Shown here in pieces: positions 15,688 through 29,692 of a stretch of DNA of 64,000 nucleotides. The stretch is taken from the sequence record PZ402305.1, one strand, 5' to 3'. Position numbers and translations under genes: made by a program. The notes beneath the pieces were generated by a model that made no database searches, was not told where the DNA came from, and was given only the letters and a program-made list of their open reading frames with translations. Each line of letters begins with the position of its first letter. The first letter of the stretch is position 1. This DNA is from a phage.

Positions 15688-16635
15688 CTACAAACTTTCA
15701 ATAACCTGGCGTCGCAACTCGTTTGCATCTGCCAGATTATAATGTGTTCGAACATGTTCAGCCAAGAACAAGCCACGATCTTCCCGATAGTTTGGATTGC
15801 GAAGAAGCTTAACAATTTCGTAATGCCATTCTGCTTTATTCTCTGCGTAAGCAACAGCGCGAGCATCTACAGGGTTAAAATAAGGTAATACCTTAGAACA
15901 AACAATTGGAATACCTTTTGCTCCAGCTTCCAGGATTTTGAGATTACTTTTACAATTATTAAAATCATTATCTACCAAAGGAGCTATAGCAATAGCATGA
16001 CTTTCGTAAACACTCATGTAATTATCTAAATCTTTTACAGCGGCTTTATATTTGGCATTTGGTAAATTTCTGCGAATCTTAATCCACTCTTGTCCCGTGA
16101 TGCTTTGTGATGCTTCATATCCCGCAATAGTAAGAAGTTCATCATCGAAAGTATTAGAGACTAGTCGTAAGTCTGGTTCGTGACTAGCACCGCCAGCCCA
16201 TACAACAGGGGTACCGGATGAACGATCATTTGACAAAGTGAATTGTCCGCTATCAAAAGGAAGTGCATTTCGGATCACAACAACATTCCTATTTAAGTGA
16301 CGGATCTTATATGCCAAATATTCCGTAGTCACAATAACCACATCAGCAAGCTTAACCATAGCTACAATAGCATGAGTGTTTGACTCGTATAGACTTGCTA
16401 AATAATGTTCTGGATTAAGTTGGTAAAAATCATCTAAGTCTACAACAACCTTAACACCTTGACGTTTCAAAGATAAAACGTATTCTGCACCTTTAGAGTG
16501 GATACGGTTAAACACAACAACATCTTTCTTAGGTTGAATATTATTGTTGTTAAATGGTATAACAATACGATGATAGTCACAACCGCTGTGAGGTTTTGCA
16601 TCAATTTTTAGTTTAGACCATTTTTTATTTGACAT
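15688..16635 (-). CDS. glycosyltransferase (GT-B fold, GT4-like), paralog 2
   Basis: KILEAGAKGIPIVCS motif; tandem paralog of 14736..15680. Confidence 0.5.
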   Translation of the reverse strand: MSNKKWSKLKIDAKPHSGCDYHRIVIPFNNNNIQPKKDVVVFNRIHSKGAEYVLSLKRQGVKVVVDLDDFYQLNPEHYLASLYESNTHAIVAMVKLADVVIVTTEYLAYKIRHLNRNVVVIRNALPFDSGQFTLSNDRSSGTPVVWAGGASHEPDLRLVSNTFDDELLTIAGYEASQSITGQEWIKIRRNLPNAKYKAAVKDLDNYMSVYESHAIAIAPLVDNDFNNCKSNLKILEAGAKGIPIVCSKVLPYFNPVDARAVAYAENKAEWHYEIVKLLRNPNYREDRGLFLAEHVRTHYNLADANELRRQVIESL

Positions 16636-17308
16636 GTGCTAGTGCCTCCTCATAGGAAATTCGGATTTTCCCATTTTTAATATCCTCTAAAGATGCTTTA
16701 TATTCTTCCCAGTTAATCCCAATAGCAGCCTCTTTCTCTTCTTTTGTCAGGTTAGCAAAAGGCATAGGATTGTTTCCAAAAACATCGTCTGGGTGGATAT
16801 AAGCCATGATACGAAGTGGACAAGGTGTTGCCTGAATACCATGATTCAAACCAGCAGCTTGCAAACGGTGTCCCCATTCAGCATCTTCAAAACCATAACC
16901 GTGAGTGTAAGGACGGAAATAACCCATCTTCTCAACAACGGCACGAGAATACATTGCAAATTGACACATTGCAAGTTCCCAGAGAATAACTTCTCCTTTG
17001 CTTCCAACAACTTTATCTTTGAAATACTCCGGCATACCAAAGAAATCCCATCCTCCAGAGACAGCTTGATCTACAAAGTATGTTTCCCATCCCTCCATGA
17101 CTGGGTAGCAATCATCGTCAAAAATAAACCAATAATCATAACCTTCTTCATAAAACTGGTGCATAAGTTCATTCCTGGCATAAGCTACACCTTTACGATC
17201 TGGATCGTTGAATACTCGAAAATCTGCACGTGGATCTGTTACAAGGTAGTCTTTAAGTGGACGGACACCTACAGTGATAACACCCACTCCGATTTTAATA
17301 TTTTCCAT
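16625..17308 (-). CDS. glycosyltransferase, GT-A fold (DxD)
   Basis: FIFDDDCYP DxD-type motif and YGFEDAEW segment typical of GT2-like enzymes. Confidence 0.45.
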   Translation of the reverse strand: MENIKIGVGVITVGVRPLKDYLVTDPRADFRVFNDPDRKGVAYARNELMHQFYEEGYDYWFIFDDDCYPVMEGWETYFVDQAVSGGWDFFGMPEYFKDKVVGSKGEVILWELAMCQFAMYSRAVVEKMGYFRPYTHGYGFEDAEWGHRLQAAGLNHGIQATPCPLRIMAYIHPDDVFGNNPMPFANLTKEEKEAAIGINWEEYKASLEDIKNGKIRISYEEALAHVK

Positions 17309-17316
17309 TTTCTCTC

Positions 17317-17880
17317 CTAAATAGTTTTACTGTGATCATGACAGTGTAATAAATGATGTATAGACCGTTGAGGATTTGTTTGACCTAATCTGTAAATGTG
17401 AAACAGATACATTCCCCGCATCAATCCTAACCTCTTTCCTTTTTCATGTAAAGTGCGAGAGAAAATTAAGTCGAATTGGATAGATTTTTCTTCGAAAGGA
17501 ATTTCATTCCACAATGATTTTCTAAAAAGCAAAAAGAAACCTGCCAGAGGTGTTCCGAAAGGAACTTCTTCAACACTTACTTTATGATATTCTCTTGCAA
17601 TCTTAGCATATTCTATATGGTTTAGAATATCGGGATCATCGTTAATTTGGTTAGAGAAAAGCTGATAACCACTACCTAACCTGTTACAAGTTGCACCTAT
17701 TACATCAAAAGGCGGGTTTGACATAACAAGCTCTTCAAGCATAGAGGGTTGATCAGGTAGGAGGAACATTGTATCGGTATCTCTTAAACACACCCAACTA
17801 TCATCTGGAAGAACGGCAATGGCTTCATTGATAGCCTTGCCGATATTTCCTGTCAGATAGGGAGTAATATAATAAATCAT
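17317..17880 (-). CDS. putative GT-A-like glycosyltransferase
   Basis: N-terminal YITPY...NEAIAVLPDDSWVCLRDTDTMF resembles GT-A Rossmann start with DxD (DTD). Confidence 0.35.
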   Translation of the reverse strand: MIYYITPYLTGNIGKAINEAIAVLPDDSWVCLRDTDTMFLLPDQPSMLEELVMSNPPFDVIGATCNRLGSGYQLFSNQINDDPDILNHIEYAKIAREYHKVSVEEVPFGTPLAGFFLLFRKSLWNEIPFEEKSIQFDLIFSRTLHEKGKRLGLMRGMYLFHIYRLGQTNPQRSIHHLLHCHDHSKTI

Positions 17881-18581: not shown

Positions 18582-19103
18582 TTAACTCCCCTTTGGTAGA
18601 TAGAAACCATGCACTTTATCTCGATAAACAAGACGCATATCACGTTCCCAGTGTGTCCTTATATTCCGTTTCTTGAAGTATAGAGCACCTTTAGTAACAT
18701 CTAAAACAGACCGCAATTCAGGAAAATGTTTCTCTAAATAAAGTAAACGCTCCGCTATTGCTTTTGCTTCCTGCCACTTATCTTTCTCTGTTACGTTAAA
18801 AGTTTTCGCATATGAGAATTGCCCTTTCTGGAACAAGACTTCTCTGACTGTGTTAGGGAAGTAGGTATCATTTCTTCTGTTGATTACCACATTCCCAACG
18901 GCATTCATTCCTTTTTTACCCAGACCGCGACCTTCTGCGTAAATTGCACAAGCTAATAGAATTTTATCATTATATTGCTTTGTACATTTGTGAACTACTT
19001 TAGCGGTTTTTACGTTTGCAGCTTCGGCTTTCGCCACAACAGGTGTAAATGTAAAAGCAGTTAAGGATAGTAACGCAACTGTTACAAAGTTTTTTATCAG
19101 CAA
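18582..19103 (-). CDS. secreted cell wall hydrolase, SleB/CwlJ-like
   Basis: N-terminal signal peptide (LLSLTAFTFTPVVAKA); AIYAEGRG...VINRR...F.KGQFSY pattern of SleB-type hydrolases; RBS aaggagg; own promoter. Confidence 0.6.
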   Translation of the reverse strand: MLIKNFVTVALLSLTAFTFTPVVAKAEAANVKTAKVVHKCTKQYNDKILLACAIYAEGRGLGKKGMNAVGNVVINRRNDTYFPNTVREVLFQKGQFSYAKTFNVTEKDKWQEAKAIAERLLYLEKHFPELRSVLDVTKGALYFKKRNIRTHWERDMRLVYRDKVHGFYLPKGS

Positions 19104-19202: not shown

Positions 19203-19805
19203 TTATGGACATTCATACCATTCTTTTTTACCACCGAAGGCCATCACCACATCACAAATATCCAGACCAGCTTTGCCTACACCATATGCTTTCAGCTTCC
19301 ATTCCCCATCTTCACGAACCAAGGAAGCCACGTGGCAGATTGTGTTGCCAGCTACTTCAGGAGCCAGGAAGTCAAAATCCAGAATTTCCACATTGCGCTC
19401 GGAGTCGAAGATTTTAAGCATACCTTCAGAAGCATGACCAAAACGTTTCAGACCTGTATCATCATCAATGGTCAGAACAAAGGCAATCTCTTGTGCATCA
19501 GGAGAGATTTTAGCCAGAGTAATATCAATCTGCTCCATGCTGCCAGTTCCATCACGAACATCGTCACCAGCGAAGGTAGAACGTTCAGGATCAAACTTGT
19601 TAGCATAGCAAACCAGATGACGTGCAGACAGCATTTCAGGATTGCCAGCGGCATTGTGACGACAAACCAGTGCACTTACATCCAGATCCAGTTTAGAATC
19701 AGATTTCCAAGAGAATTCCAGGCGCAGTTCTTTCAGAGCCGGAGCAACCTTCTTCAGGGAAATTTTTTCGCTAGAGCCTTTTTTCAGGGAAATTTTATCA
19801 GTCAT
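19203..19805 (-). CDS. terD: TerD-family protein
   Basis: N-terminal ISLKK...ISLKK start and C-terminal EDGEWKLKAYGVGKAGLDICDVVMAFGG resemble the TerD domain (compare E. coli TerD ...NGEWKFRAVGQGYAGGL...); ~200 aa. Confidence 0.8.
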   Translation of the reverse strand: MTDKISLKKGSSEKISLKKVAPALKELRLEFSWKSDSKLDLDVSALVCRHNAAGNPEMLSARHLVCYANKFDPERSTFAGDDVRDGTGSMEQIDITLAKISPDAQEIAFVLTIDDDTGLKRFGHASEGMLKIFDSERNVEILDFDFLAPEVAGNTICHVASLVREDGEWKLKAYGVGKAGLDICDVVMAFGGKKEWYECP

Positions 19806-19820
19806 CTTTTGTCTCCTCTA

Positions 19821-20090
19821 TTATTTAAGTGTAATACCAGTTACAGTCAATTCTACTTCCAAAAGCTTAGATGTGTTTTGGATTGATACTAATTGTGCAT
19901 GATGGTTTAGTTCTACAGCAGAATAATCATTTTCCCCATCATCTACTTTTAAATAAACAATAATTTCACTAAGGTCTAAACCATTTTCGTCAAATGCATT
20001 TTCATAGACGAAAGTATCTCCTACATCCAAATCTTTAATAGTAAGGCATCGTTTATTTACTTTTTGCTCATCAATTTCGAAGTTTAACAC
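19821..20090 (-). CDS. hypothetical protein, paralog of 21112..21390
   Basis: Shares DLDVG(D/A)TF...GLD...V(E/D)L(T/E)VT(G/N)ITLK with the ORF upstream of the vWA gene. Confidence 0.5.
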   Translation of the reverse strand: MLNFEIDEQKVNKRCLTIKDLDVGDTFVYENAFDENGLDLSEIIVYLKVDDGENDYSAVELNHHAQLVSIQNTSKLLEVELTVTGITLK

Positions 20091-20319
20091 TTCTTCCTCC
20101 TAATGTTATCTCCGGTTTGTATATACGAAGAATTATAGCATTTTCATTTTCTTTGTCAACCCATTCTTCATAATCAGGCCATACATGAATCTCTACTCTA
20201 CTTACAATATCTTCCATTCGCACAGTCCCAATGAAATACTCTTTGAGACTGCGCATAATGAAAGCTTCTCTCTCACGCCAATAATTTTCTATGACTTGAG
20301 AGGCAAGCTCGTCGATCAT
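20071..20319 (-). CDS. hypothetical protein
   Basis: 82 aa ORF, overlaps neighbours by few nt. Confidence 0.45.
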   Translation of the reverse strand: MIDELASQVIENYWREREAFIMRSLKEYFIGTVRMEDIVSRVEIHVWPDYEEWVDKENENAIILRIYKPEITLGGRSVKLRN

Positions 20320-21110
20320 TTTTTAGCACCTACTTTAACAACCCACTCTCCGAACTCTTCAGATAAGAGTTTGTCATAAAGCTCTGAATCTGTCAAGTCT
20401 AAATCTTTAATGCCAATAAAACCAACATTATCATAAGCATTTGCCAGTTCTTTCAGGAAGCCAAACTTCTCATTACCAACGCCAACCATGAACCAATAAA
20501 TAGGTTTATTCTTATTCTCTTCGATAAGACGACGAACAGCACTAGGATCACCATTCTCACCATCAGTCTGGAAGAATACAACACCAGGGGTAACGTCAGA
20601 ACCTGGTTCAGATACAGCTACAACTTTTTCACGCTCTACAGACACTGTTTCAGTTTTACCAAGCAGACGATTAAAGAAGCCTTTCTTTGGAGCCTCCTCT
20701 TGTACCACTTGTTTAGTGGTAATATATTTAGTAACAGTGCCAAAATACTCATCGTAGATATCCGCCATTACAGGGGCGTAATTTGTTCCACCTCCGATAC
20801 GAACATTACGCATACATTTACCAACATAGTCATCGTAAACATCTGCTGTTGCTGGAGTAAGCTCTTGGGAACTCGTATTGAAGGCCCACATATCAATTTG
20901 TTGATTATCGTCGAACAGCATACCAAAAGGAAGCAGTTTACCTACAAAATCACTCACTACCCCACTAGAATATAGACCATGCATACTACCAGAAATATCT
21001 AGAGCACATGCTACACGAAGAACAATCTTACCTTCATTCAGGTTCTTATTCTTTTTCAGAGAGAAAGCAAGGTTTTCTTGACGTTTTTTCAGGCTGATTT
21101 TCTCGGACAT
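20316..21110 (-). CDS. vWA-domain protein with TerD-like N-terminus (TerY/TerF-like)
   Basis: N-terminal EKISLKK like TerD start; MIDAS motif ALDISGSMHG (DxSxS); sits in Ter-like module. Confidence 0.65.
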   Translation of the reverse strand: MSEKISLKKRQENLAFSLKKNKNLNEGKIVLRVACALDISGSMHGLYSSGVVSDFVGKLLPFGMLFDDNQQIDMWAFNTSSQELTPATADVYDDYVGKCMRNVRIGGGTNYAPVMADIYDEYFGTVTKYITTKQVVQEEAPKKGFFNRLLGKTETVSVEREKVVAVSEPGSDVTPGVVFFQTDGENGDPSAVRRLIEENKNKPIYWFMVGVGNEKFGFLKELANAYDNVGFIGIKDLDLTDSELYDKLLSEEFGEWVVKVGAKK

Positions 21111-21111
21111 A

Positions 21112-21390
21112 TTATTTCTCCTTCTTAAGTGTAATATTGGTAACTTCTAAATCTACTTCCACCATATTTGTATCTGGTGGGATGCAATGAGTATAGCCTC
21201 GTTGTGCTAGTGATCCATTAATACAGATCGCACTGTTTGTGGAATTTTTAATGAACACCAAGTTACGGTAGGTATCCAACCCTGCGTCTTCATAGGCATC
21301 ATAATACATGAATGTGGCCCCTACGTCAAGATCTTCGAAAGCAATAGGTAAATCCTGACTTTTTTCTTCTTGAATATTGAATCTAAACAC
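21112..21390 (-). CDS. hypothetical protein, paralog of 19821..20090
   Basis: ORF track 21112..21456 overlaps upstream gene; GTG at 21388-21390 with AGGAGG RBS gives length matching paralog. Confidence 0.4.
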   Translation of the reverse strand: MFRFNIQEEKSQDLPIAFEDLDVGATFMYYDAYEDAGLDTYRNLVFIKNSTNSAICINGSLAQRGYTHCIPPDTNMVEVDLEVTNITLKKEK

Positions 21391-21946
21391 GCATACCTCC
21401 TCTACCAATTTTGAAGCCCAAATCGTAAGCTTCCTTAGTGATCTTTTGTAACTCACTTATAGGAAGTGTTACAAGAGGATCATCTTCTTCAATTTCCATC
21501 TTGTCATCTTCTGTTTCAATGAGAGTATTATGCACTTTGTGATAAGGGTTGTCAACACGTTTAAACTTATTCTTTTCTGTGCTGAAAAAACAATCTGGAT
21601 CTTCTTCACCATCACCCCAACCTTGGTTAGGATCTCCGTCAGATTGTTCTGTAGGGATTTCACCTGTAAAGTACTCTTCCAGCACCATAGCGATACCGTC
21701 CCTTGGATTTGAGGAATGCATCAAATCACAAACCTTACTCCAATCCATAGCCCATTCGAACCGTTCACGAACGCCGTTTTCATCCTCCTTTCCAGAGAAA
21801 ACACAACCATAACTATCATAGTTGCCATACATCTCTTCAATAACAACACCGTCCTTCAAAAGAAAGAGATAACAAGGCGATCCGTCGAAAGAAGTAGAAA
21901 GGGCAGCTTTGCCCGATTCTTTGCACAAAAAGCTAAAACAACCCAT
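21383..21946 (-). CDS. hypothetical acidic protein
   Basis: 187 aa ORF. Confidence 0.5.
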   Translation of the reverse strand: MGCFSFLCKESGKAALSTSFDGSPCYLFLLKDGVVIEEMYGNYDSYGCVFSGKEDENGVRERFEWAMDWSKVCDLMHSSNPRDGIAMVLEEYFTGEIPTEQSDGDPNQGWGDGEEDPDCFFSTEKNKFKRVDNPYHKVHNTLIETEDDKMEIEEDDPLVTLPISELQKITKEAYDLGFKIGRGGMRV

Positions 21947-22149
21947 TACAAACCCTCCTTCAGATTATCAAGAGCTACAGTGGTTTCACAAAAGTCTCCA
22001 TAAGTTTTATGATGTTCCAGAAAAGCTTCGGGTCCACCCCAGTCATTATCTTGTGTATTCCAGCCATCAATAAAAGCATCTTCAATGATTGTGATCAGTT
22101 CTTGTCGGGTTAACTGGATAATATTAGGATCGTTATCGTAGTTAAACAT
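21946..22149 (-). CDS. hypothetical protein
   Basis: 67 aa ORF. Confidence 0.4.
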   Translation of the reverse strand: MFNYDNDPNIIQLTRQELITIIEDAFIDGWNTQDNDWGGPEAFLEHHKTYGDFCETTVALDNLKEGL

Positions 22150-22314
22150 CCTCTTCCTCCTCTAAAATATGGAACCCGTAATTACAATAGTCCTGAAAGG
22201 TTTCGTGCGCAAGATCTTCTATATCCTCTTGAGACATATCATCTTCAATTTCGATATCCACAACCTCATTGCATCCACACCAAGCAGTTTCAATATTCAC
22301 TCGTAATATTTTCA

Positions 22315-22509
22315 TTACTCCTCCTCATTGAAGTCAATATCTGCAAGGAGTTCGAATTTACGGAAGTTACGACAACCTTCATAAATATAACAATCACGAC
22401 AAACTGCTAGAACACTTGGGGGATATATGCCTCCCATCGGTGCGAATCGTTTTTCGTCATCATAACGGACACCAATGTCTTCATCAATTATATAGATACG
22501 GATTCTCAT
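22315..22509 (-). CDS. hypothetical protein
   Basis: 64 aa ORF, stop overlaps TelA-like start. Confidence 0.4.
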   Translation of the reverse strand: MRIRIYIIDEDIGVRYDDEKRFAPMGGIYPPSVLAVCRDCYIYEGCRNFRKFELLADIDFNEEE

Positions 22510-23618
22510 TTACCAAGCCCTCGTTTCACAGCAGCTACCATCCCGTCTTCCAGAGATTGAACTTCATTAATATAATCAACACGAGCAGCACGGGCTTCCG
22601 TATTGATGCGGTTAGTTTCTTCCAGCATCTTAACCAAGTTTTCCTGATCGTGACGCAGAGTTTCAATATCCAACACTTGACGGTTAGCCAGTGCTGCTGC
22701 TTCGATCTGATTCTGTGTGGCAAGATCGCTACCCAGTTTAATTGCCAGGTTAAATTCATCAAGAACGTTATTCTGCGTCTCTGCTGCTTTCATTTGACGT
22801 AAGCTCTCGATATACATTGAGAAGTTAGCAGAGTAAGCAGGAATAACATTATTTACTATGTTACGCGCAGATCGCATTAAGCTTGCAGAAACTTTTTGCA
22901 TACCTTGTACACGCGGTCCCATTTGGACACACAGTAGGCGCAATGCTTTTAAATCTGCAATACGAATCTCCAGAAGATCCAAAGTATCTCGGATCACTTG
23001 TCGCTGTTCTACTGCATCTTCTGGAAGAGCAGCCAAAGCTTGTTCTTCTTTTTCATAGGTTGCTGTTAGAAGCTGCATATCTCGGTTCAAACTTGCAGCA
23101 TATTGTCCAATAGCTTGATGTAGCTTTTCAAGATATACCAAGGAATCTTCTTCTTTGCGAATATCCATTTGAAGGTTCTTTACCAACTCTTCAATACGGT
23201 TATTAACATTATCAAACTCCCCAAACAGGTCTTCTTTCATACCCATAACTTTTTTAATGAGTTTAGTAATACCCTTGCTTTGTTTAATAGAGTTTGGATC
23301 AAGTTGTTTTGCCTGTTTAATCAAAGCTGTGAGTCGTTCACTCATCTGATCGCCTTGATTACTACGTTGATGTTTTAATACCTCGGCATTCAAGGAACGC
23401 AAGGTTGTTCCTGCCTCTGCCCCAATCTCTTCGATCTCTTGTCGGGTCATAGAAGGCAAAACTGGAACTTCTTGCGGTGCCGCTGGTGCATAAACAGGAC
23501 TGGCATCTAACACGCTTGGAGCGAATACAGATTTACTTGCATCTGTTGTTGCAGCAAATACGCTCATTTCAGGCTTCTTCTGACCACCAGTAGCTGCTTT
23601 TAAAAATGGACTTGTCAT
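22506..23618 (-). CDS. telA: TelA-like (toxic anion resistance) protein
   Basis: 370 aa, long predicted coiled-coil/helical protein of TelA-like size in neighbourhood of terC and terD; assignment by context and composition, no diagnostic motif verified. Confidence 0.45.
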   Translation of the reverse strand: MTSPFLKAATGGQKKPEMSVFAATTDASKSVFAPSVLDASPVYAPAAPQEVPVLPSMTRQEIEEIGAEAGTTLRSLNAEVLKHQRSNQGDQMSERLTALIKQAKQLDPNSIKQSKGITKLIKKVMGMKEDLFGEFDNVNNRIEELVKNLQMDIRKEEDSLVYLEKLHQAIGQYAASLNRDMQLLTATYEKEEQALAALPEDAVEQRQVIRDTLDLLEIRIADLKALRLLCVQMGPRVQGMQKVSASLMRSARNIVNNVIPAYSANFSMYIESLRQMKAAETQNNVLDEFNLAIKLGSDLATQNQIEAAALANRQVLDIETLRHDQENLVKMLEETNRINTEARAARVDYINEVQSLEDGMVAAVKRGLGK

Positions 23619-24205
23619 TCTTCATTCTCCTCTTCTGCATCTCTTATATATGGTGAAACACCGTACTCTTTAGCTACTTTAACCCAATCGTCCCATTTAT
23701 ACAACCATAATTTTCCTTCGGTCCCTTCTTTATCTGATTTCAACCACATATTAGGTTGCTTACCTGGGTACATGCGATTAGGTTTACGATTATAACCTCT
23801 AACACATCTTGTCGCAAACCTATCTACCAGAACAAGAACATATTTATACTCGTGGTTCAACGGCTCTTTGGAAGTGGCTTTAGGATTAGCCCCTAATTCT
23901 GCTGCCAGTTTTTGCCAATGAGCACCGTGCCTACTAAACTTACCCATACAACCATCAATAGCATGAGCAATTTCGTGCTTCATTGTATCCACGATCATAT
24001 CTCTTGTGGAGTTCTTATGCAAGTGCCAATTTACAACAACAATTTTATCTCGGTAGTTGCACCAACCGAAAGAGTTATTCACTTTGTTTCTAACACAAGC
24101 TTTATATCCTGCTTCACGTAACATGTTGTAGTAAACAGGAAAATCTTCTTTTATTTCCTGCATCACTTCCCACCACAAGAGTTGCAAGTCTCTCTCGGTA
24201 TGCAT
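23615..24205 (-). CDS. SprT-like zinc metalloprotease
   Basis: HEIAHAID...HGAHW (HExxH plus downstream His) as in SprT/WLM metalloproteases. Confidence 0.5.
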   Translation of the reverse strand: MHTERDLQLLWWEVMQEIKEDFPVYYNMLREAGYKACVRNKVNNSFGWCNYRDKIVVVNWHLHKNSTRDMIVDTMKHEIAHAIDGCMGKFSRHGAHWQKLAAELGANPKATSKEPLNHEYKYVLVLVDRFATRCVRGYNRKPNRMYPGKQPNMWLKSDKEGTEGKLWLYKWDDWVKVAKEYGVSPYIRDAEEENEE

Positions 24206-24208
24206 AAC

Positions 24209-24802
24209 TTACACCTTAAAAGTGAAATGCGTGGTCGTGGCTTCAAAATCAGGACCAGATAAACGTGCACTGAAATCTGAAATATTTGTAATTAAAAAGC
24301 TTTTATGCATACCTAACACAGCCACGCTTTCAATATCTTCTACTAACATTTCAATCATGTTAGAAACATGGCTGAACGTAGAGTTTTGTTTTTTGATGGT
24401 GTAGAAAGAAAGATTCCCACCTGCTGTATAAGATACCTCTTCAAAATCTTTAATCGTATATTGTGTGCCATCAGTAAAGAAAATGGTAGCTTTATTCGTA
24501 GCACGTTTCTTGTTTTTTGGTCCTTTTTTACGTTTACTGCGAGTAGGCAAACCGTTTGGGAACACCATAGCTACAAATTCTTCAGCAGAAACCTCCTTAC
24601 CGAAATCATAACCATAAGAGACAGCATCTATAAACTCGTCATCTTCATTTTTAAAATAATGGAAATAGGGCCAATTTGAAAGATTATCAAGCATCTTATG
24701 CTCGTCCACAGCAGAGAATGTATCCCTCAAAGCGCGTGTGATTTGCAAAGCATTAGGCAACCTTTTAACACCTACGATGGAAGTACGAATAGAAATTGTC
24801 AT
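24209..24802 (-). CDS. hypothetical protein
   Basis: 197 aa ORF. Confidence 0.5.
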   Translation of the reverse strand: MTISIRTSIVGVKRLPNALQITRALRDTFSAVDEHKMLDNLSNWPYFHYFKNEDDEFIDAVSYGYDFGKEVSAEEFVAMVFPNGLPTRSKRKKGPKNKKRATNKATIFFTDGTQYTIKDFEEVSYTAGGNLSFYTIKKQNSTFSHVSNMIEMLVEDIESVAVLGMHKSFLITNISDFSARLSGPDFEATTTHFTFKV

Positions 24803-24816
24803 TGTTTTTCTCCTTA

Positions 24817-25254
24817 TTAACGTCGCTTGCTACGAGATGAACTCTTTTTACTTAAAGGGCTATTGTAAGATTTACGAGTTGTATAGCTACTATTTGTTTT
24901 AAAAGTTTGTCTCGGCTTTTCATAAGTTTTTATCTCTGGCTTAGGCTTACCATAAAAATTAGTTTTCGGTTTAGGTGTGTTATAATGTTTATTAATAATC
25001 GTTCTGTTATCGTTATAATCCCCGCTGCTACGATTACTACCGCCACTCATCATATGCCCTAACAACATACCTGTAGCAAACTCACCAACACCGCTACTAC
25101 TAGAACCGCCACCATTGTTGATAATAGTTGTATCTCCGTCAGATCCTTGTTGAGCGTATTGTTGAGGAGGTTGTTGGTATTGTGCAGGATTTGTTTCATC
25201 CTCGCAAGCTGTTAAAAAGATACAGCCAATTAAAATCAGGGCTAGTTTTTTCAT
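24817..25254 (-). CDS. lipoprotein with Gly/Ser-rich low-complexity region
   Basis: ORF track start 25329; internal ATG at 25254 gives MKKLALILIGCIFLTAC (signal peptide plus lipobox LTAC). Confidence 0.5.
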   Translation of the reverse strand: MKKLALILIGCIFLTACEDETNPAQYQQPPQQYAQQGSDGDTTIINNGGGSSSSGVGEFATGMLLGHMMSGGSNRSSGDYNDNRTIINKHYNTPKPKTNFYGKPKPEIKTYEKPRQTFKTNSSYTTRKSYNSPLSKKSSSRSKRR

Positions 25255-25437
25255 ATTTGCTTTCCTCATTTTGACTATTAATACATCTGTGTTTGAAATC
25301 TCCAGAGAAGCAATAAAGTTGCTCTCCATCTCGGTATAAACTCACTTTACTGCCGTTGATTACGCTTGTCAATACAAAAATTACAACAAACAACCCTATT
25401 GCAAAACAAATATTTTCAAACACAATCAACAAGTATT

Positions 25438-25788
25438 TCATTTTAAAAATACCTCATCATCAGTTTCATTATCCCAGAAGAACAAATCCCAACCATTCGG
25501 ATCATTCCATTTGGCTGCTGGAGAAGTCCATATTTGTTCGATATCAATATTCAAAACTTCACCGTTTCGTTTTGAAACAGCTTTAGTTAATTCCCAACGA
25601 GATACAGGCTCTACTTCCCCTGAACCACTCCCACAACAAGCTACCACGTTAGGAGGCAAATTAATTGGATCTTTGGTCACGATCATAACGCTTACCCCAG
25701 GGTAAACTTTTGAAAGATAATCTAAAACGTAATCCACATCACCAGATAAATCCCAAACAAGTTCTTGAATTTCATCAAAATTATTCAT
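25438..25788 (-). CDS. hypothetical protein
   Basis: 116 aa ORF; preceded (minus sense) by terC terminator hairpin 25807-25824 (cUUCGg loop). Confidence 0.45.
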   Translation of the reverse strand: MNNFDEIQELVWDLSGDVDYVLDYLSKVYPGVSVMIVTKDPINLPPNVVACCGSGSGEVEPVSRWELTKAVSKRNGEVLNIDIEQIWTSPAAKWNDPNGWDLFFWDNETDDEVFLK

Positions 25789-25830
25789 AAGTCTCTCCTA
25801 TAAAATAGCCTCCCGAAGGAGGCTCATCTA

Positions 25831-26805
25831 TTAAACAGCAGCTTCTTCTTTTTCAGGGAAGATAAAGCTTGCAATAACACCAAGAGCTAATGTGCCTAGA
25901 ACAATCATCAGACTTACGTTAGGGGAAATATCATGCGGGAGGAATGACCACTTGGCATGAAGTGTTTCACCGAACGGGTGATACATAAGTTTAGCACCGA
26001 CAAATACCAGAACCACAGCAACAGCTTTCTCTAAGTGAACCAGATATTTCACAGCCACACTTAACACAAAGAAAAGTGCACGTAAACCAAGAACAGCCAT
26101 CAGCATTGCAGAATAAACTAGCAGAGGTTCTTGTGTCACACCGATCACAGCCGGAACTGAATCAAAAGAGAAGACAATATCTGTAAGCTCAATAACAAAC
26201 ACACAAAGAAGAGCAGGAGTTGCATATTTAATACCATTCTTAATGGTGATGAACTTTTCACCATCCAGTGCATTGTGCACAGGCAGAACTTTACCTACTA
26301 AACGAACAGCCCAATGCTTAGAGTAATCAATATCCTCTTCTTCGTCACCACCTTTGATGATAGCCACGGCAGACCAAGCTACAATCAAACCGAACAACAC
26401 TTGGACCGACCAATGAAGGTTAAACAAAGCGGTCCCTGCTGCAACAAAAATACCTCGGAAGACAATGGCTCCTGCAATTCCCCAAAGTAAAATCTTATGT
26501 TGGAGATGTGTGCTCTTAATTCCAAAGCTTGCAAAAATTGCCATGAACACCATCAGGTTATCTACAGAAAGACTCTTTTCCAACACATAGCCACTTAGGA
26601 AAAGCGCGGCAAACTCTTTACCATGTTCTACCCAAATGAATGCGTAATATCCTAAAGCTAAAGCAATCCAAAAAACAGACCAAAGCAAAGCAGATTTAAT
26701 TCCAATTTCTTTATTCTCTTTATGACCAAAGAAATCAATACCAATAGACAATGCTAAAATACCAACTAAAACAACTACATCAATAATGGGGAAACCAAGT
26801 TGCAT
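25831..26805 (-). CDS. terC: TerC-family integral membrane protein
   Basis: 324 aa multi-pass membrane protein; YVLEKSLSVDNLMVF segment typical of TerC/Alx family. Confidence 0.75.
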   Translation of the reverse strand: MQLGFPIIDVVVLVGILALSIGIDFFGHKENKEIGIKSALLWSVFWIALALGYYAFIWVEHGKEFAALFLSGYVLEKSLSVDNLMVFMAIFASFGIKSTHLQHKILLWGIAGAIVFRGIFVAAGTALFNLHWSVQVLFGLIVAWSAVAIIKGGDEEEDIDYSKHWAVRLVGKVLPVHNALDGEKFITIKNGIKYATPALLCVFVIELTDIVFSFDSVPAVIGVTQEPLLVYSAMLMAVLGLRALFFVLSVAVKYLVHLEKAVAVVLVFVGAKLMYHPFGETLHAKWSFLPHDISPNVSLMIVLGTLALGVIASFIFPEKEEAAV

Positions 26806-26824
26806 TATTTTCTCCTTTCTCTTT

Positions 26825-26883
26825 GCGGGGAACCACTCCCCGCCTCATGTGATACATCTTACTCTATTCTAAAACTTTGTCAA
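26825..26883 (-). promoter_or_regulatory. early-type promoter with 5' stem-loop driving terC
   Basis: Minus strand reads TTGACA-16 nt-TAAGAT-gtatcacat-GAGGCGGGGAGTGGTTCCCCGC stem-loop, then RBS and terC ATG; same architecture as the 48.8-59.2 kb early promoters. Confidence 0.65.
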
Positions 26884-26886
26884 CAC

Positions 26887-27108
26887 TTATTTTGAAGAAC
26901 TTGAGGAAAAGATCCCACGTAGTACAGCCATGATAAATGCCACACACACCACAGTCCAGAAGGTGACAGGAACAGTGATATCTGTGTGACCCATCATTTC
27001 AACAACGTAGTTATAAGCCAGCAGCAGAAGCCATGCTGGAATCATACTAATCAGAAAAGCAATAACAAACACAATAATCACTGCAAGAATACCTGCTAAA
27101 ACGTCCAT
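26887..27108 (-). CDS. small membrane protein (2 TM)
   Basis: 73 aa, two hydrophobic helices. Confidence 0.45.
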   Translation of the reverse strand: MDVLAGILAVIIVFVIAFLISMIPAWLLLLAYNYVVEMMGHTDITVPVTFWTVVCVAFIMAVLRGIFSSSSSK

Positions 27109-27121
27109 AATATTTCTCCTC

Positions 27122-27595
27122 TTAAAGTTTATAAATAGTCACATCGTGACCTGTTTTTACTAAAGTTTCTTCAATCATCACTTCAATGATAGCCCAATTA
27201 CCTCCTGCCAACCCTGCTCCAATCATAGGTAAGCCGATCTTACATTTTTGGTCACGGAGAAGCAAATCGTTAGCCATAGCTATTAGTGCATCGTAAAGTG
27301 CATCATAGTCCAACTGACGACCTTTAGCATTGTATCCGTAACGGTATTGCCCGTATAGATTATATACCAAAGGGTCTGATTGTTCGTCTGGCACCCCTAA
27401 ACTAAAACAACCTAGTTTACTTTGATCACCAGCCATTGTGTCTAAGTCTGCTGCATATGCGTAAGGAAATGCTTGTTTGATTTGTGGGGCAATACCTGCC
27501 CCCATATTACACATACAGTTGCAACAATGAGCAATAACAGTTACTTCACCTGCTTTAGCGGCATCAATAAGATTACCTGTTTTCATTTTAAGCAT
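27122..27595 (-). CDS. macro-domain-like protein (ADP-ribose binding/processing)
   Basis: Start moved to ATG at 27595 (RBS taaggag, avoids overlap); GNLIDAAKAG.VTVIAHCCNC...GAGIA aligns with macro motif GDIT...VIVNAAN...GGGV.GAI; C-terminal IGLPMIGAGLAGGNW like macro P-loop. Confidence 0.5.
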   Translation of the reverse strand: MLKMKTGNLIDAAKAGEVTVIAHCCNCMCNMGAGIAPQIKQAFPYAYAADLDTMAGDQSKLGCFSLGVPDEQSDPLVYNLYGQYRYGYNAKGRQLDYDALYDALIAMANDLLLRDQKCKIGLPMIGAGLAGGNWAIIEVMIEETLVKTGHDVTIYKL

Positions 27596-27608
27596 TTTTA
27601 GCTCCTTA

Positions 27609-28436
27609 TTACAGAATGTGTTGTTTTGTGTAACGATCCAAGAATTCAAAGTTTTCAGCATACTTTGAAATTCGGTTGTAACCTTCTCCCAAGCATCCAA
27701 AGAAAAGTTGCTCTACATAGTAATGTGGCAATTGGCTAAGAATGATTTTGAAGTCTTCATGATTTTGGCCCATAAGATACTTAATAGGACGAACAAGACA
27801 CTGTGCATCACGTTCTTCATTAATCATTTTAACAAACGCTTCTGGTGTATTAATGTAGTTAAAATTCAGTTTAGCTTCGGTATCTGCTTGATTACCTTCA
27901 TATTTTGCAAAATACAGGAAGTAAACATCATTTTTAACTTGATTTTCATTAAGGATCTCAATCAGTTTGTCTTCATGCGTTCCAGTGATATTTACATCAT
28001 CAATGAATACAAGCTTCTTATCACCCCAGAATTCTTTGTTACAGTAGAATGTATCCCCATCAATAAGTTTCTTACGACTAGCTTTATCCAAGAAACCATA
28101 ATCGTTGATATAGCTAACTTTACGATGAATAATGTCCAGTTCTGCTGAACGACCTTGATCATATTGTGCTTGCAACATATTAAAGTAATTAATAAAATGA
28201 TCTGTCATCATTGTTGCAGCATTATGCACATGGTTGTAAGGAGAAGGAATGATAACAAATTGTTCCCCAATATGTTTCATTGCCACTTGAGCAAAAAACT
28301 GAAGTGCCAATTCTTTACCCATACGACGCGCAGCTTGGTTACTACCAAATTTCAATTTTGAATAATCTTGGATATCAAAAGTAGCAGTTTCCAGGTCATC
28401 AAATTTATTTGCAAAAATTTGAGTTTGATTACGCAT
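27609..28436 (-). CDS. phosphoribosyltransferase (type I PRTase fold)
   Basis: KLVFIDDVNITGTHE matches PRPP-binding motif (hhhhDD..TGGT). Confidence 0.55.
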   Translation of the reverse strand: MRNQTQIFANKFDDLETATFDIQDYSKLKFGSNQAARRMGKELALQFFAQVAMKHIGEQFVIIPSPYNHVHNAATMMTDHFINYFNMLQAQYDQGRSAELDIIHRKVSYINDYGFLDKASRKKLIDGDTFYCNKEFWGDKKLVFIDDVNITGTHEDKLIEILNENQVKNDVYFLYFAKYEGNQADTEAKLNFNYINTPEAFVKMINEERDAQCLVRPIKYLMGQNHEDFKIILSQLPHYYVEQLFFGCLGEGYNRISKYAENFEFLDRYTKQHIL

Positions 28437-29085
28437 TTACAATTTCTCCTCTTTTAAGTTTCTCTAGTAAGTCGTTAGGGTTCTTAATATGACAGAAGTT
28501 AAACCCTAAGTCAACACATTTTCCATCATATTCTTCACTATCGCCTACGTGCAACACTTCGTGCCCTAACAGAGGGATCGGAGAATACGTGAGCGTGCGA
28601 GCAAAGAATCGCGGATCTGGTTTACAAAGTAAAGCTTCATCCGAGAAATGGGTGAACTCAAAACAATTCCAACTATCAAACTTACAAGCACGACGCAGAA
28701 TATCCCCTGATATGAAGTTGGTATTGCTCTTAATACTCAAATCATAACGCCCAGAAAGATACAGCAAGTACATCGGCAGATCTACGGCTACGTGTGGTGG
28801 AAACTTAAGAAACCACTGTTCACACTCGAAACGAAGCTTTGCAGACTTCCAAGGCGTTATCCCAAGTTCAGAACCAAGTCTTTCCCAGGCGTATGCTGCA
28901 CACTCGGCTTTGCCTTGAAGTGCTGCATTATCCAGTTCCTTTTTGATCTTTTTATAAGCTGCTCTTGCTTCAACTTCCGTAATATCTCCATATTTTGCGA
29001 TAGTCCAGGCTCGCATGTCTGCGTAATTGGAGTTTGCTGTGATCAGTGTGTTCCATACATCAAAAGAGATATGTTTAATAGTCAT
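28429..29085 (-). CDS. HAD-superfamily-like hydrolase
   Basis: N-terminal ISFDVWNTL (HAD motif I-like, variant) and C-terminal VGDSEEYDG (motif IV-like). Confidence 0.4.
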   Translation of the reverse strand: MTIKHISFDVWNTLITANSNYADMRAWTIAKYGDITEVEARAAYKKIKKELDNAALQGKAECAAYAWERLGSELGITPWKSAKLRFECEQWFLKFPPHVAVDLPMYLLYLSGRYDLSIKSNTNFISGDILRRACKFDSWNCFEFTHFSDEALLCKPDPRFFARTLTYSPIPLLGHEVLHVGDSEEYDGKCVDLGFNFCHIKNPNDLLEKLKRGEIVNA

Positions 29086-29086
29086 A

Positions 29087-29692
29087 TTAAGCCCACCATG
29101 CGTCTAAGTTAAGATTACTGTCCACTACCACTTGTTCTATGTGGTAGCCTTTTATCTGTATCCCACTGTTCAAGAGCATATCATACGCTTCATTGAAACG
29201 CAACTTATCTTCTGCGGAATATAAGCGAGCATTATAAAATCGGTAATCAATTTCTTCAGCATTAGAAGAAATACGGAAGAAGTTTGTTTCTACTTCGGGA
29301 TCACTTGCTGAAGTCTTAATGTGAACTTCTCCATAATTTTCTTTACTTAGATCCATGAAAAGAACACAGGCAACATGTTTAAACATTCGTTCCAGTTTGT
29401 AACGAACAACATTGAAACCTGCATTCTCAAGTTTTTCTACACACTGCAACATTAAAGTAGTGTCGAGATCGCTTTGATACTTTGTTAACATACGATCACG
29501 TTGAGACTTTGTATCCCGATGTAAATCAATTGTTGTGCATTTGGCACCAATAATCTTAGCTGCTTTCATCAACTCTTCAGAACTAACGTTAGATAAAGTA
29601 AGATGAAAATGGGCTTTCCACACTTTTTTAGCAGGGACACCAAAAGATTTATCCCCACTATTCGGCATGTTGACTACTACACTATGTTGCAT
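29087..29692 (-). CDS. hypothetical protein
   Basis: 201 aa ORF adjacent to HAD/PRTase genes. Confidence 0.5.
   Translation of the reverse strand: MQHSVVVNMPNSGDKSFGVPAKKVWKAHFHLTLSNVSSEELMKAAKIIGAKCTTIDLHRDTKSQRDRMLTKYQSDLDTTLMLQCVEKLENAGFNVVRYKLERMFKHVACVLFMDLSKENYGEVHIKTSASDPEVETNFFRISSNAEEIDYRFYNARLYSAEDKLRFNEAYDMLLNSGIQIKGYHIEQVVVDSNLNLDAWWA

What the first reader, a model, noticed from the sequence alone, without database searches (positions are those of the whole stretch)
19203..29692. Phage-borne Ter-like module with nucleotide-metabolite enzymes
Within about 10 kb on one strand lie a TerD-family protein, a second protein with TerD-like N-terminus fused to a vWA (MIDAS) domain, a TelA-like protein, a TerC membrane protein, a type I phosphoribosyltransferase, a HAD-like hydrolase, a macro-domain-like protein and an SprT-like metalloprotease. 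Published comparative genomics of bacterial Ter systems predicts that TerD paralogs, TelA and TerC act with PRTase and HAD phosphatase enzymes that make a nucleoside-like metabolite. Finding a compact version inside a virulent phage replication block suggests the phage uses it during infection, for stress or membrane management or for making a modified nucleotide. Only TerD and TerC rest on strong motif evidence here.
Basis: partly seen in the sequence, partly recalled or inferred. Interest (0 to 1): 0.8.

Follow-up and report, generated by a model that had tools for sequence, protein, structure and literature searches.

The report
Phage-encoded Ter (tellurite-type) membrane stress module
A virulent E. 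coli phage of the phAPEC8 group carries its own compact copy of the bacterial "Ter" membrane stress and phage-exclusion system plus a two-enzyme unit predicted to make a nucleoside-like molecule; the gene set is real, but phage Ter systems are already published and their function has not been tested.

Summary
All eight domain calls pass profile tests: TerD, vWA-TerF-like, TelA, SprT-like, TerC (Alx subfamily), Macro, PRTase_3 and a HAD-IA hydrolase.

The window is a Phapecoctavirus, 97-99% identical to more than 60 deposited genomes.

Comparison across 18 PRTase_3 lineages gives three results:
- HAD-then-PRTase_3 is an invariant adjacent pair (18/18).
- TerD, vWA-TerF, TelA and TerC travel with the pair in about half of the lineages, in shuffled gene orders, so they are functionally linked to it.
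- Macro, SprT and the 201-aa protein are lineage-specific neighbours, not Ter core.

A bacterial MAG carries the same pair inside a cluster with TerD genes and TerY-type vWA and PP2C genes. Rhizobium plasmids and phages carry the pair alone.

Phage Ter systems with PRTase and HAD were already described (Iyer et al. 2021, PMC7824862), and tellurite genes were noted in the phapecoctavirus ZCKP1.

The most likely role is an early-expressed, envelope-associated complex that protects or closes off the infected cell (superinfection exclusion), tuned by the metabolite the pair makes. This is inference only.

A role in DNA modification is unlikely. The kind of system is already known. Interest is moderate, because its function is unsolved and this phage is tractable.

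The parts
28429..29085 (-). HAD-IA hydrolase, the first gene of the invariant HAD-PRTase pair. It overlaps the PRTase start by 8 nt.
   Evidence: A family profile hits PDB 2om6 at 5e-19. NCBIfam gives weak hits to DREG-2 and YjjG; PHROG 14393 'hydrolase'. Asp9, Ser120/Asn121, Lys155, Asp182 and Asp187 are invariant. Trp11 sits at the Asp+2 position in at least 90% of the homologues. The gene lies directly upstream of PRTase_3 in 18/18 lineages.
27609..28436 (-). Type I phosphoribosyltransferase of family PRTase_3 (ComF-like); its base substrate is unknown.
   Evidence: Pfam PF15610, E 4.5e-42. The PRPP loop FIDDVxITGTHE is invariant in 16 homologues. Only marginal PDB matches, limited to the PRPP loop of HGPRT and UPRT.
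27122..27595 (-). Stand-alone macrodomain of the TARG1/SCO6735/DarG class. It is an accessory neighbour, 13 nt downstream of the PRTase.
   Evidence: Pfam Macro, 22.9 bits against a cutoff of 22. PDB 5e3b 3e-13 and TARG1 7e-7. PADLOC DarG 3e-10. Found within 10 kb of the pair in only 4 of 18 lineages.
26887..27108 (-). 73-aa protein with two transmembrane segments. It forms one exchangeable cassette with TerC.
   Evidence: Hydropathy analysis. Conserved in phi92. Diverges together with TerC relative to phage tuntematon.
25831..26805 (-). TerC/Alx-type integral membrane protein with about 9 transmembrane segments.
   Evidence: PF03741, E 3e-40. TIGR03718, 319 bits against a cutoff of 246. Nine hydrophobic segments, agreeing with PMC10698182. 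No riboswitch upstream.
25807..25824 (-). Intrinsic-terminator-like hairpin (AGCCTCC-TTCG-GGAGGCT followed by AUUUUAU), 7 nt after the TerC stop codon.
24817..25441 (-). Two small envelope proteins: an 81-aa protein with one transmembrane segment (25196-25441) and a lipoprotein (24817-25254, with an LTAC lipobox after the internal Met).
   Evidence: Both are conserved in phi92 (gp181 and gp180; gp180 is annotated with a signal peptide).
23615..24205 (-). SprT-like zinc metalloprotease (HEIAH motif), overlapping the TelA start by 4 nt. A lineage-specific accessory.
   Evidence: PF10263, 36.7 bits against a cutoff of 25.6. Absent from the phi92 locus. Present in 2 of 18 lineages.
22506..23618 (-). 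TelA-family protein. It has a disordered N-terminal region of about 55 aa followed by very long helices.
   Evidence: PF05816, E 3e-33. AF2 model with pLDDT 74.5 and helices at 130-197 and 203-367. No significant PDB match by fold; the best natural hits are ClyA-family toxins and F-BAR domains, at E>0.03. No PDB match by sequence.
21112..21390 (-). 92-aa protein (GTG start, GGAGG ribosome-binding site), a paralogue of the 89-aa gene at 19821-20090. It lies directly upstream of the vWA gene.
   Evidence: BLASTP E 3e-13. Start codon read. A promoter-like site matching 11 of 12 consensus positions lies at 21555-21527.
20316..21110 (-). vWA-TerF-like protein with an intact MIDAS site (D38-x-S40-x-S42, T109, D183).
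   Evidence: PF10138, E 1.6e-37. The MIDAS residues are invariant in 8 phage homologues. The N-terminus shares only a short motif with TerD.
19821..20159 (-). Perfect sigma70-type promoter (TTGACA, 16-nt spacer, TG-n-TATAAT; 20159-20132), followed by the 89-aa paralogue directly upstream of TerD.
19203..19805 (-). TerD-domain protein. Its Ca2+-binding loop is shortened and partly de-acidified.
   Evidence: PF02342, E 3e-28. PDB 2kxt at 1.5e-15. Loop alignment.
29087..29692 (-). 201-aa protein of unknown function, inside the stated range but not a Ter component.
   Evidence: No Pfam or NCBIfam hit. AF2 model with pLDDT 83 shows tandem ferredoxin-like repeats, with no PDB match. Hits the PADLOC 'AbiEi' model at 4.7e-13. 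Homologues occur without Ter genes.

Best explanation
This is a phage-encoded Ter system.

Its conserved core has six genes: HAD, PRTase_3, TerC, TelA, vWA-TerF and TerD. In this phage subfamily the core is joined by small membrane proteins (a two-TM protein, a one-TM protein and a lipoprotein).

Proposed mechanism:
1. The genes are transcribed early, from the replication-gene arm and from two near-consensus host-type promoters.
2. PRTase_3 joins PRPP to an unknown base.
3. The adjacent HAD enzyme removes a phosphate, giving a nucleoside-like small molecule.
4. TerD (a metal- or ligand-binding beta-sandwich), the MIDAS-containing vWA protein and the long-helical TelA assemble under the inner membrane with the Alx-type TerC transporter.
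5. This complex changes membrane and ion properties so that the infected cell is closed to later invaders (superinfecting phage DNA, pore-forming colicins) and kept intact until programmed lysis.

What is shown: gene identities, intact catalytic and MIDAS motifs, the invariant HAD-PRTase pairing, and recurrent co-location with Ter genes.

What is inferred: the chemistry of the product, its binding by TerD, assembly of the complex, expression timing, and the exclusion phenotype.
For: Identities:
- Profile hits for all components.
- The PRPP loop and the HAD nucleophile and Mg2+ motifs are invariant.
- The MIDAS site is invariant.

Linkage:
- HAD lies immediately upstream of PRTase_3 in 18/18 lineages.
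- Within 10 kb of the pair, the jackhmmer search finds TerD in 9 lineages, vWA-TerF in 8, TelA in 6 and TerC in 5 of 18, in at least five different gene orders. Separate Pfam hits add a TerC/DUF475 membrane protein in two more lineages.
- A TerB gene lies near the pair in one further lineage.
- A Haliea MAG carries TerC-like, TerD, TerY (vWA plus TerY_C), PP2C, TerD, HAD and PRTase_3 genes in one cluster.

Envelope focus: four membrane or lipoprotein genes are interleaved with the core and conserved in phi92.

Expression: a perfect sigma70 promoter lies upstream of s89-TerD, an 11-of-12 promoter upstream of s114-vWA, and a terminator directly after TerC.

Conflict-type evolution: the s73-TerC cassette exists as two alleles about 72% identical that are exchanged between genera, while the flanks stay about 99% identical.

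Published precedent: bacterial and plasmid Ter systems give phage inhibition and colicin resistance, and the same exclusion role was proposed for phage copies (PMC7824862; PMC8386662; PMC6141743).
Against: - No experiment on any phage Ter gene was found.
- About half of the PRTase_3 lineages carry the pair with no detectable Ter gene within 10 kb. These include Rhizobium phages, XaC1 and Rhizobium plasmid pRL10. The pair can therefore work alone.
- Many phages have TelA or TerC without the pair.
- The HAD family lacks the Asp+2 general acid/base of canonical phosphatases (Trp instead), so 'phosphatase' is not secure.
- The TerD Ca2+ loop is degenerate in this lineage.
- The total count of promoter-like sites is not above chance (58 against 49.8 +/- 7.2).
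- The TelA fold search gave nothing significant.
Confidence: 0.4

Rival explanations
1. Housekeeping of the infected cell rather than exclusion. The Alx-type TerC, with TerD, vWA and TelA, adjusts Mn2+/Ca2+ and membrane integrity. This keeps phage metallo-enzymes (the RNRs encoded just upstream) supplied and stops the secreted endolysin from acting prematurely. In short: metal homeostasis or lysis-timing support.
For: - TerC passes the Alx subfamily model. Alx is described as a Mn2+ exporter, and TerC proteins as metal chaperones or zinc- and tellurite-resistance factors (titles and abstracts of PMC10197570, PMC12096827 and PMC12054061).
- No terminator-like site was found between nrdD/nrdG and TerC, so they may form one transcription unit.
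- The endolysin follows TerD directly in phAPEC8-like phages and with one intervening gene in phi92, and has a hydrophobic N-terminus.
- A Na+/Ca2+ exchanger sits next to the pair in an Akkermansiaceae MAG.
Against: - It does not explain why a dedicated small-molecule synthesis pair is linked.
- It does not explain why TerC alleles are swapped like conflict genes.
- Proximity to a peptidoglycan hydrolase is weak evidence in phage genomes.
- No metal data exist.
Confidence: 0.25
2. Two unrelated things sit side by side. HAD-PRTase_3, perhaps with the macrodomain, is an autonomous nucleotide or ADP-ribose-related unit (salvage, or production or destruction of an immune signal). The Ter proteins act without it.
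For: - The pair occurs alone in about half of the lineages and on Rhizobium plasmids.
- In Brevundimonas phage Papperlapapp the PRTase lies about 37 kb from TelA and TerC.
- A macrodomain of the DarG/TARG1 class follows the PRTase here.
- NAD-salvage-type genes (PnuC, AAA_28) lie near the pair in one contig.
Against: - Co-location with TerD, vWA, TelA and TerC recurs in at least 8 lineages despite gene-order shuffling, including a bacterial Ter-type cluster (Haliea MAG) that carries TerD genes with TerY-type vWA and PP2C genes. Such recurrence is the usual signature of functional coupling.
- The macrodomain is near the pair in only 4 of 18 lineages.
Confidence: 0.2
3. The pair makes a modified nucleotide that is incorporated into phage DNA to evade restriction.
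For: - A PRTase makes a nucleoside 5'-monophosphate.
- The genes sit in a nucleotide-metabolism block (RNRs).
Against: - The partner enzyme is a hydrolase of the phosphatase superfamily, which would remove the phosphate that needs to be extended. No kinase is present.
- No base-exchange or DNA-modifying enzyme is linked.
- The conserved partners are membrane proteins.
- The same pair sits in non-viral contexts: a bacterial Ter cluster and Rhizobium plasmids.
Confidence: 0.05
4. It is an auxiliary gene set that gives the host tellurite or xenobiotic resistance.
For: - The family names and database annotations say 'tellurite resistance'.
- This role is suggested for Pseudomonas syringae phages (PMC11256456).
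Against: - A virulent phage kills its host within one cycle.
- Tellurite is rare in nature.
- The authors of that paper themselves say the presence of these genes does not imply resistance.
Confidence: 0.03

Closest known systems
Phage-borne Ter operons described by Iyer, Anantharaman, Krishnan, Burroughs and Aravind 2021 (PMC7824862). Examples are Acinetobacter phage vB_AbaM_ME3 (with PRTase and HAD) and Caulobacter jumbo phages (TerD, TerC, TerF, TelA).
   Same: - The same component families: TerD, TerC, TelA, the TerF-type vWA, PRTase and HAD.
- Also carried by a phage.
- The same proposed role against superinfection.
- That paper explicitly mentions 'certain other related smaller tailed phages'.
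   Different: - This is a non-jumbo (about 150 kb) virulent E. coli phage.
- Added here are the invariance of the HAD-PRTase_3 pair, its occurrence without Ter genes, the interleaved small envelope proteins, and the exchange of TerC alleles.
Bacterial and plasmid Ter systems: terZABCDEF of IncHI2 R478 and E. coli O157, TerY-kinase-PP2C clusters, and the Bacillus yceC-H/TelA genes.
   Same: - TerD fold, TerC membrane protein, TelA, a vWA with MIDAS, and a linked PRTase plus HAD.
- A Haliea MAG has the same HAD-PRTase_3 pair inside a cluster with TerC-like, TerD, TerY-type vWA and PP2C genes.
   Different: - The window has no TerB, no TerZ/A/E/F paralogue expansion, no TerY_C, kinase or PP2C, and no ATP-grasp.
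- There is a single TerD, with a degenerate Ca2+ loop.
- PRTase_3 homologues were not found on enterobacterial ter plasmids, only on Rhizobium, Sinorhizobium and Hymenobacter plasmids.
- The phage TerD matches the Klebsiella TerD structure only distantly (E 1.5e-15), so this is an old lineage and not a recent capture from the host.
E. coli Alx and other TerC-family metal transporters.
   Same: The phage TerC scores above the curated Alx subfamily cutoff and has about 9 transmembrane segments.
   Different: - No yybP-ykoY riboswitch is present.
- The gene is embedded with TelA, TerD and vWA genes.
- It is paired with a co-varying 73-aa two-TM protein.
Classical phage superinfection-exclusion proteins (T4 Imm and Sp, T5 Llp lipoprotein); the comparison rests on general knowledge.
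   Same: - They would work alike: early-expressed inner-membrane or lipoprotein factors that close the infected cell to later phages.
- The module includes a lipoprotein and small transmembrane proteins.
   Different: - No sequence relationship.
- The Ter module is far more complex and includes enzymes.
TARG1 / SCO6735 / DarG-type macrodomains.
   Same: The 157-aa protein matches these by sequence.
   Different: - It lacks the DarT-binding C-terminal domain of DarG.
- Its NCBIfam DarG score (35 bits) is far below the cutoff (250).
- Its substrate is unknown, and it is not a conserved Ter partner.

Membership tests
Ter system (Anantharaman/Aravind sense) | TerD-domain protein | tested here: met
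   PF02342, 98.9 bits against a cutoff of 25.3. PDB 2kxt at 1.5e-15.
Ter system (Anantharaman/Aravind sense) | TerC-family integral membrane protein | tested here: met
   PF03741, E 3e-40. TIGR03718, 319 bits against a cutoff of 246. Nine hydrophobic segments.
Ter system (Anantharaman/Aravind sense) | TelA-family protein | tested here: met
   PF05816, 115.7 bits against a cutoff of 30.
Ter system (Anantharaman/Aravind sense) | TerF/TerY-type vWA protein with a MIDAS site | tested here: met
   PF10138, 130 bits against a cutoff of 29.4. The DxSxS, T and D residues are invariant. It carries no TerD domain, only a 20-aa N-terminal motif.
Ter system (Anantharaman/Aravind sense) | Linked PRTase plus HAD 'biosynthetic' genes | tested here: met
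   PF15610, E 4.5e-42. HAD profile against 2om6 at 5e-19. Adjacent in 18/18 lineages.
Ter system (Anantharaman/Aravind sense) | Conserved gene neighbourhood across distant genomes | tested here: met
   the same families recur in shuffled order in at least 8 lineages with PRTases under 70% identical, including one bacterial MAG.
Classical terZABCDEF / TerY-P operon | TerB, multiple TerD paralogues (TerZ/A/E/F), and a TerY_C-kinase-PP2C triad | tested here: not met
   Pfam found no such domain in any of the 20 ORFs scanned in the region. There is only one TerD.
Ter system | Phenotype: tellurite resistance, phage inhibition, colicin resistance | not testable with these tools
   Requires experiments. 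No published test of a phage copy was found.
TerD (Ca2+-binding beta-sandwich) | Acidic Ca2+-binding loop GDNxTGxGDGDDE | tested here: inconclusive
   The window and phi92 have GDDVRDGT--GSME (two residues shorter, three acidic positions lost). Other phage and bacterial TerDs keep the canonical loop.
Type I phosphoribosyltransferase | PRPP-binding loop (acidic pair followed by T-G-x-T) | tested here: met
   FIDDVNITGTHE; D146, D147, T151, G152 and T153 are invariant in 16 sequences.
Type I phosphoribosyltransferase | Identified base substrate or product | not testable with these tools
   Only loop-level similarity to HGPRT and UPRT (E 0.2-1). No paper mentions the family.
HAD phosphatase | Motif I nucleophile Asp, motif II Ser/Thr, motif III Lys, motif IV acidic pair | tested here: met
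   D9, S120, K155, D182 and D187 are invariant.
HAD phosphatase | Asp+2 general acid/base in motif I (DxD) | tested here: not met
   The motif is [FL]D[VF]W[NGQ]T. Trp replaces Asp+2 in at least 90% of the phage and bacterial homologues aligned, and in PDB 2om6.
Macrodomain (TARG1/DarG class) | Macro fold or profile match | tested here: met
   Pfam Macro is just above its cutoff. 5e3b at 3e-13 and TARG1 at 7e-7.
DarG antitoxin | Full-length DarG with the C-terminal DarT-binding domain | tested here: not met
   Only 157 aa. NCBIfam DarG gives 35 bits against a cutoff of 250.
Riboswitch-controlled Alx | yybP-ykoY Mn2+ riboswitch upstream | tested here: not met
   No Rfam match in the whole window.
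SprT-like metalloprotease | HExxH zinc motif and profile match | tested here: met
   HEIAH is present in the sequence. PF10263, 36.7 bits against a cutoff of 25.6.

The most novel reading that the evidence does not exclude
HAD-PRTase_3 is a self-contained, invariant two-enzyme synthase of a still unidentified riboside. The HAD enzyme has unusual chemistry (Trp at the Asp+2 position). The riboside is the ligand that switches a TerD / vWA / TelA / TerC-s73 envelope complex. Phages use this switch as an early, multi-target superinfection and colicin exclusion device, and the inter-genus swapping of the s73-TerC cassette reflects an arms race between competing phages. Identifying the riboside in this tractable E. 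coli phage would give the first biochemical handle on Ter systems in general.
Probability: 0.25. Interest if true: 0.7.

Novelty: already known. Interest (0 to 1): 0.35.

Why it matters
Ter systems are widespread in bacteria, plasmids and phages. They have been linked to phage inhibition and colicin and tellurite resistance since the 1990s, yet their metabolite, ligand-sensor pairing and membrane mechanism are still unknown.

This phage copy has six core genes. Near-identical relatives (for example tuntematon and anhysbys) are recorded with E. coli K-12 MG1655 as host. That gives a small, genetically accessible version in which the predicted nucleoside-like product and the exclusion phenotype could be tested directly.

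For phage therapy, this genus is often proposed as a therapeutic. A built-in exclusion system would matter for cocktail design.

Tried and rejected
- **p201 as a Ter component.** Rejected: homologues occur without Ter genes. The PADLOC 'AbiEi' hit is kept only as a lead.
- **TelA fold assignment.** The model is of moderate quality, and only non-significant resemblance to ClyA-type toxins and F-BAR domains was found.
- **A Mn2+ riboswitch upstream of TerC.** None found.
- **PRTase substrate from solved structures.** Only the PRPP loop aligns.
- **The same PRTase on enterobacterial ter plasmids.** Not found; only Rhizobium-type plasmids, which carry the pair alone.
- **Unannotated 310-430 aa proteins in other phage Ter loci.** No Pfam family.
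- **Small ORFs in the window.** No informative Pfam hits.
- **Source papers.** The Anantharaman 2012 Ter paper and the phi92 genome paper are not held. Their content is used only as summarised in PMC7824862.
- **Experimental data.** Literature searches for work on phage Ter genes or on PRTase_3 found none.

Full report
**What the window is**

The 10.5-kb region is 97-99% identical over its full length to more than 60 deposited phage genomes of the genus Phapecoctavirus, such as phAPEC8, ZCKP1, tuntematon and EF1-1. In these genomes it lies on one strand. Upstream are DNA helicase, class I RNR and anaerobic RNR genes (nrdD/nrdG). Downstream are the endolysin, four glycosyltransferases and the primase/helicase. 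Base composition is uniform, at about 38-40% GC.

**Checking the observation**

Twenty-one minus-strand ORFs fill 19203-29692.
- TerD (E 3e-28).
- vWA-TerF-like (1.6e-37).
- TelA (3e-33).
- SprT-like (4e-9, with an HEIAH motif).
- TerC (3e-40).
- Macro, just above the Pfam cutoff.
- PRTase_3 'ComF-like' (4.5e-42).

TerC also passes the curated Alx subfamily model.

The macrodomain is best matched by SCO6735 (3e-13), BT1257 and TARG1 and by the PADLOC DarG macro model. Its true start is probably the ATG at 27595, as annotated in related genomes.

The HAD protein is below the Pfam cutoff on its own. A profile built from 14 homologues hits PDB 2om6 at 5e-19 over the full length, plus 44 other PDB sequences, nearly all HAD-fold.

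The 201-aa ORF at the upstream end has no family.

The vWA protein carries an intact MIDAS site that is invariant across lineages. It has no TerD domain. Only a motif of about 20 residues at the N-terminus (hydrophobic-x-L-x-K, repeated) is shared with TerD.

**Which genes belong together**

I compared PRTase_3-containing loci from four sources:
- Annotated phages: phi92, XaC1, Rhizobium phage TM30 and tuntematon.
- Metagenomic and IMG/VR contigs.
- Three bacterial MAGs.
- A Rhizobium plasmid.

I searched their ORFs iteratively with the window proteins. Clustering the PRTases at 70% identity gave 18 lineages.

- **The pair.** HAD lies immediately upstream of PRTase_3, on the same strand and usually overlapping it, in 18 of 18 lineages.
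- **The Ter genes.** Within 10 kb of the pair, the jackhmmer search finds TerD in 9 lineages, vWA-TerF in 8, TelA in 6 and TerC in 5. Separate Pfam hits add a TerC/DUF475 membrane protein in two more lineages. A TerB gene is present in one more lineage.
- **Gene orders differ.** Examples are TerC-vWA-TerD-TerD-TelA-HAD-PRT; TelA-HAD-PRT-vWA...TerD; TelA-vWA...HAD-PRT-TerD; and TerC...TerD...vWA-HAD-PRT.
- **This is not chance.** Each family occurs in only about 0.3-0.4% of phage records, so repeated co-location after rearrangement is good evidence of functional coupling.
- **A bacterial parallel.** A Haliea MAG has the same pair at the end of a cluster that holds a TerC-like protein, TerD genes, a TerY-type vWA and a PP2C phosphatase.
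- **The pair alone.** It stands without Ter genes in XaC1, Rhizobium phages, several viral contigs and Rhizobium plasmid pRL10.
- **Ter genes without the pair.** Many phages carry TelA or TerC without it.
- **Accessories.** Macro is near the pair in 4 of 18 lineages. SprT and p201 are each present in only 2 of 18, both within the Stephanstirmvirinae. p201 homologues sit in phages with no Ter genes, once beside an Acb1 gene.

The conserved core is therefore HAD, PRTase_3, TerC, TelA, vWA-TerF and TerD. The other three named genes are neighbours.

**Anatomy in this phage**

- **Transcription signals.** A strong hairpin terminator follows TerC directly. No terminator-like site was found between nrdD and TerC, so nrdD-nrdG-s74-p201-HAD-PRT-Macro-s73-TerC may form one transcription unit. 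Downstream are a perfect sigma70-type promoter with an extended -10 element (20159-20132) and a second promoter matching 11 of 12 consensus positions (21555-21527). Each is followed by a small paralogous gene (89 and 92 aa, E 3e-13) and then by TerD or vWA. The total count of promoter-like sites is not above chance, so only these two near-perfect matches carry weight.
- **Envelope proteins.** Four are interleaved and conserved in phi92: a two-TM 73-aa protein, TerC (about nine TM; also reported in PMC10698182), a one-TM 81-aa protein and a lipoprotein with an LTAC lipobox.
- **TelA.** It is predicted as a disordered N-terminus followed by very long helices. It has no significant structural neighbour.

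**Details that qualify the textbook reading**

- **HAD chemistry.** The family keeps the nucleophile Asp and the Mg2+-binding motifs. Trp occupies the Asp+2 general acid/base position in at least 90% of the phage and bacterial homologues, and in 2om6. 'Phosphatase' is therefore an inference.
- **TerD loop.** The Ca2+ loop is shortened and loses three acidic residues in this phage and in phi92. Other phage TerDs keep it.
- **PRTase.** The PRPP loop is invariant. Nothing indicates the base substrate, and no paper in the library mentions the family.

**What is already known**

Iyer et al. [quoted passage not shown] They include a 'relatively complete' system with PRTases and HAD. They summarise the model as follows: PRTase and HAD make a nucleoside or nucleotide signal; TerB and TerD sense it; TerC acts in the membrane; TelA and the TerF vWA form sub-membrane structures. 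They propose a role against superinfecting phages.

The ZCKP1 paper (a phapecoctavirus) notes four tellurite-related genes and gives the same rationale. The phiKp34 paper lists terC, terF-vWA, terD and telA.

I found no experimental test of any phage copy.

**Most likely mechanism**

I favour an early-expressed, envelope-associated Ter complex that closes or stabilises the infected cell against later phages and pore-formers, modulated by the product of the pair (confidence 0.4).

Support comes from:
- The linkage data.
- The envelope-rich gene content.
- The host-type promoters.
- The bacterial and plasmid phenotypes cited in the literature.
- The evolution of the s73-TerC cassette. It is only 60-88% identical in DNA to that of phage tuntematon, while the flanks are about 99% identical. 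Tuntematon's TerC is 95% identical to the TerC of phi92, which belongs to another genus.

Rivals are metal or lysis-timing housekeeping (0.25), an autonomous HAD-PRTase unit merely parked beside Ter genes (0.2), DNA modification (0.05) and tellurite resistance for the host (0.03).

**Verdict**

The kind of system is already known. Interest is moderate. It rests on the unsolved biochemistry of Ter systems and on the tractability of this phage group.

Noticed in passing
window 25815-27208 (s73 + TerC): The two-TM 73-aa gene and TerC form a mosaic cassette. DNA identity to phage tuntematon is only 60-88% here, against about 99% in the flanks. Tuntematon's TerC is 94.8% identical in protein to that of phi92 (a different genus), whereas the window's TerC is 71-73% identical to both. 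Two TerC alleles are therefore being exchanged across the Stephanstirmvirinae.
   Followed up: yes
window 19821-20159 and 21112-21555: Two small paralogous proteins (89 and 92 aa, 33% identical, E 3e-13) have no known family. Each follows a near-consensus sigma70 promoter and lies directly upstream of TerD or vWA. phi92 has only one copy.
   Followed up: partly
window 29087-29692: The 201-aa protein defines an uncharacterised family. Residues HxHxT, ExHxK and RFYNxR are invariant. The AF2 model shows tandem ferredoxin-like repeats with no PDB neighbour. It matches a PADLOC 'AbiEi' model over its full length (E 4.7e-13). Homologues occur in Rheinheimera phages and once beside an Acb1 (anti-CBASS) gene. 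It may be an anti-defence gene.
   Followed up: partly
window 28429-29085 and homologues in L002-L007, L012, L014, L022-L029: This HAD family carries Trp instead of the canonical Asp at the Asp+2 position of motif I ([FL]D[VF]W[NGQ]T) in at least 90% of homologues. The uncharacterised archaeal structure 2om6 shows the same feature.
   Followed up: yes
window 19203-19805: The TerD Ca2+-binding loop is two residues shorter and has lost three acidic positions in this phage and in phi92. Other phage TerDs and bacterial TerDs keep GDNRTGxGDGDDE.
   Followed up: yes
L032 (Rhizobium johnstonii 3841 plasmid pRL10, 8346-9819) and Rhizobium phage L004: The HAD-PRTase_3 pair occurs alone, with no Ter gene within 9-10 kb, on conjugative Rhizobium plasmids (next to repA) and in Rhizobium phages.
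   Followed up: partly
window 18582-19103 and 16625-17880: The endolysin sits directly downstream of TerD and begins with a hydrophobic, signal-like segment. In phi92 one gene separates it from TerD. Four glycosyltransferase genes follow further downstream. Both features could bear on envelope modification or lysis control.
   Followed up: no
L005 5392-8486, L006 4603-8029, L007 3989-6561 and 11530-12468: Other phage Ter loci carry recurrent unannotated proteins of 310-430 aa between TerC, TerD and vWA. They have no Pfam family and may be further Ter-associated components.
   Followed up: partly
one search hit list: Records labelled as Campylobacter, Acinetobacter and Pseudomonas phages are 90-98% identical to E. 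coli phapecoctaviruses across this locus. Their host labels look doubtful.
   Followed up: no
window 22010-22214: An indel or replacement relative to tuntematon: a 67-aa gene here against a 132-aa gene there, within the run of small genes between TelA and p187.
   Followed up: no
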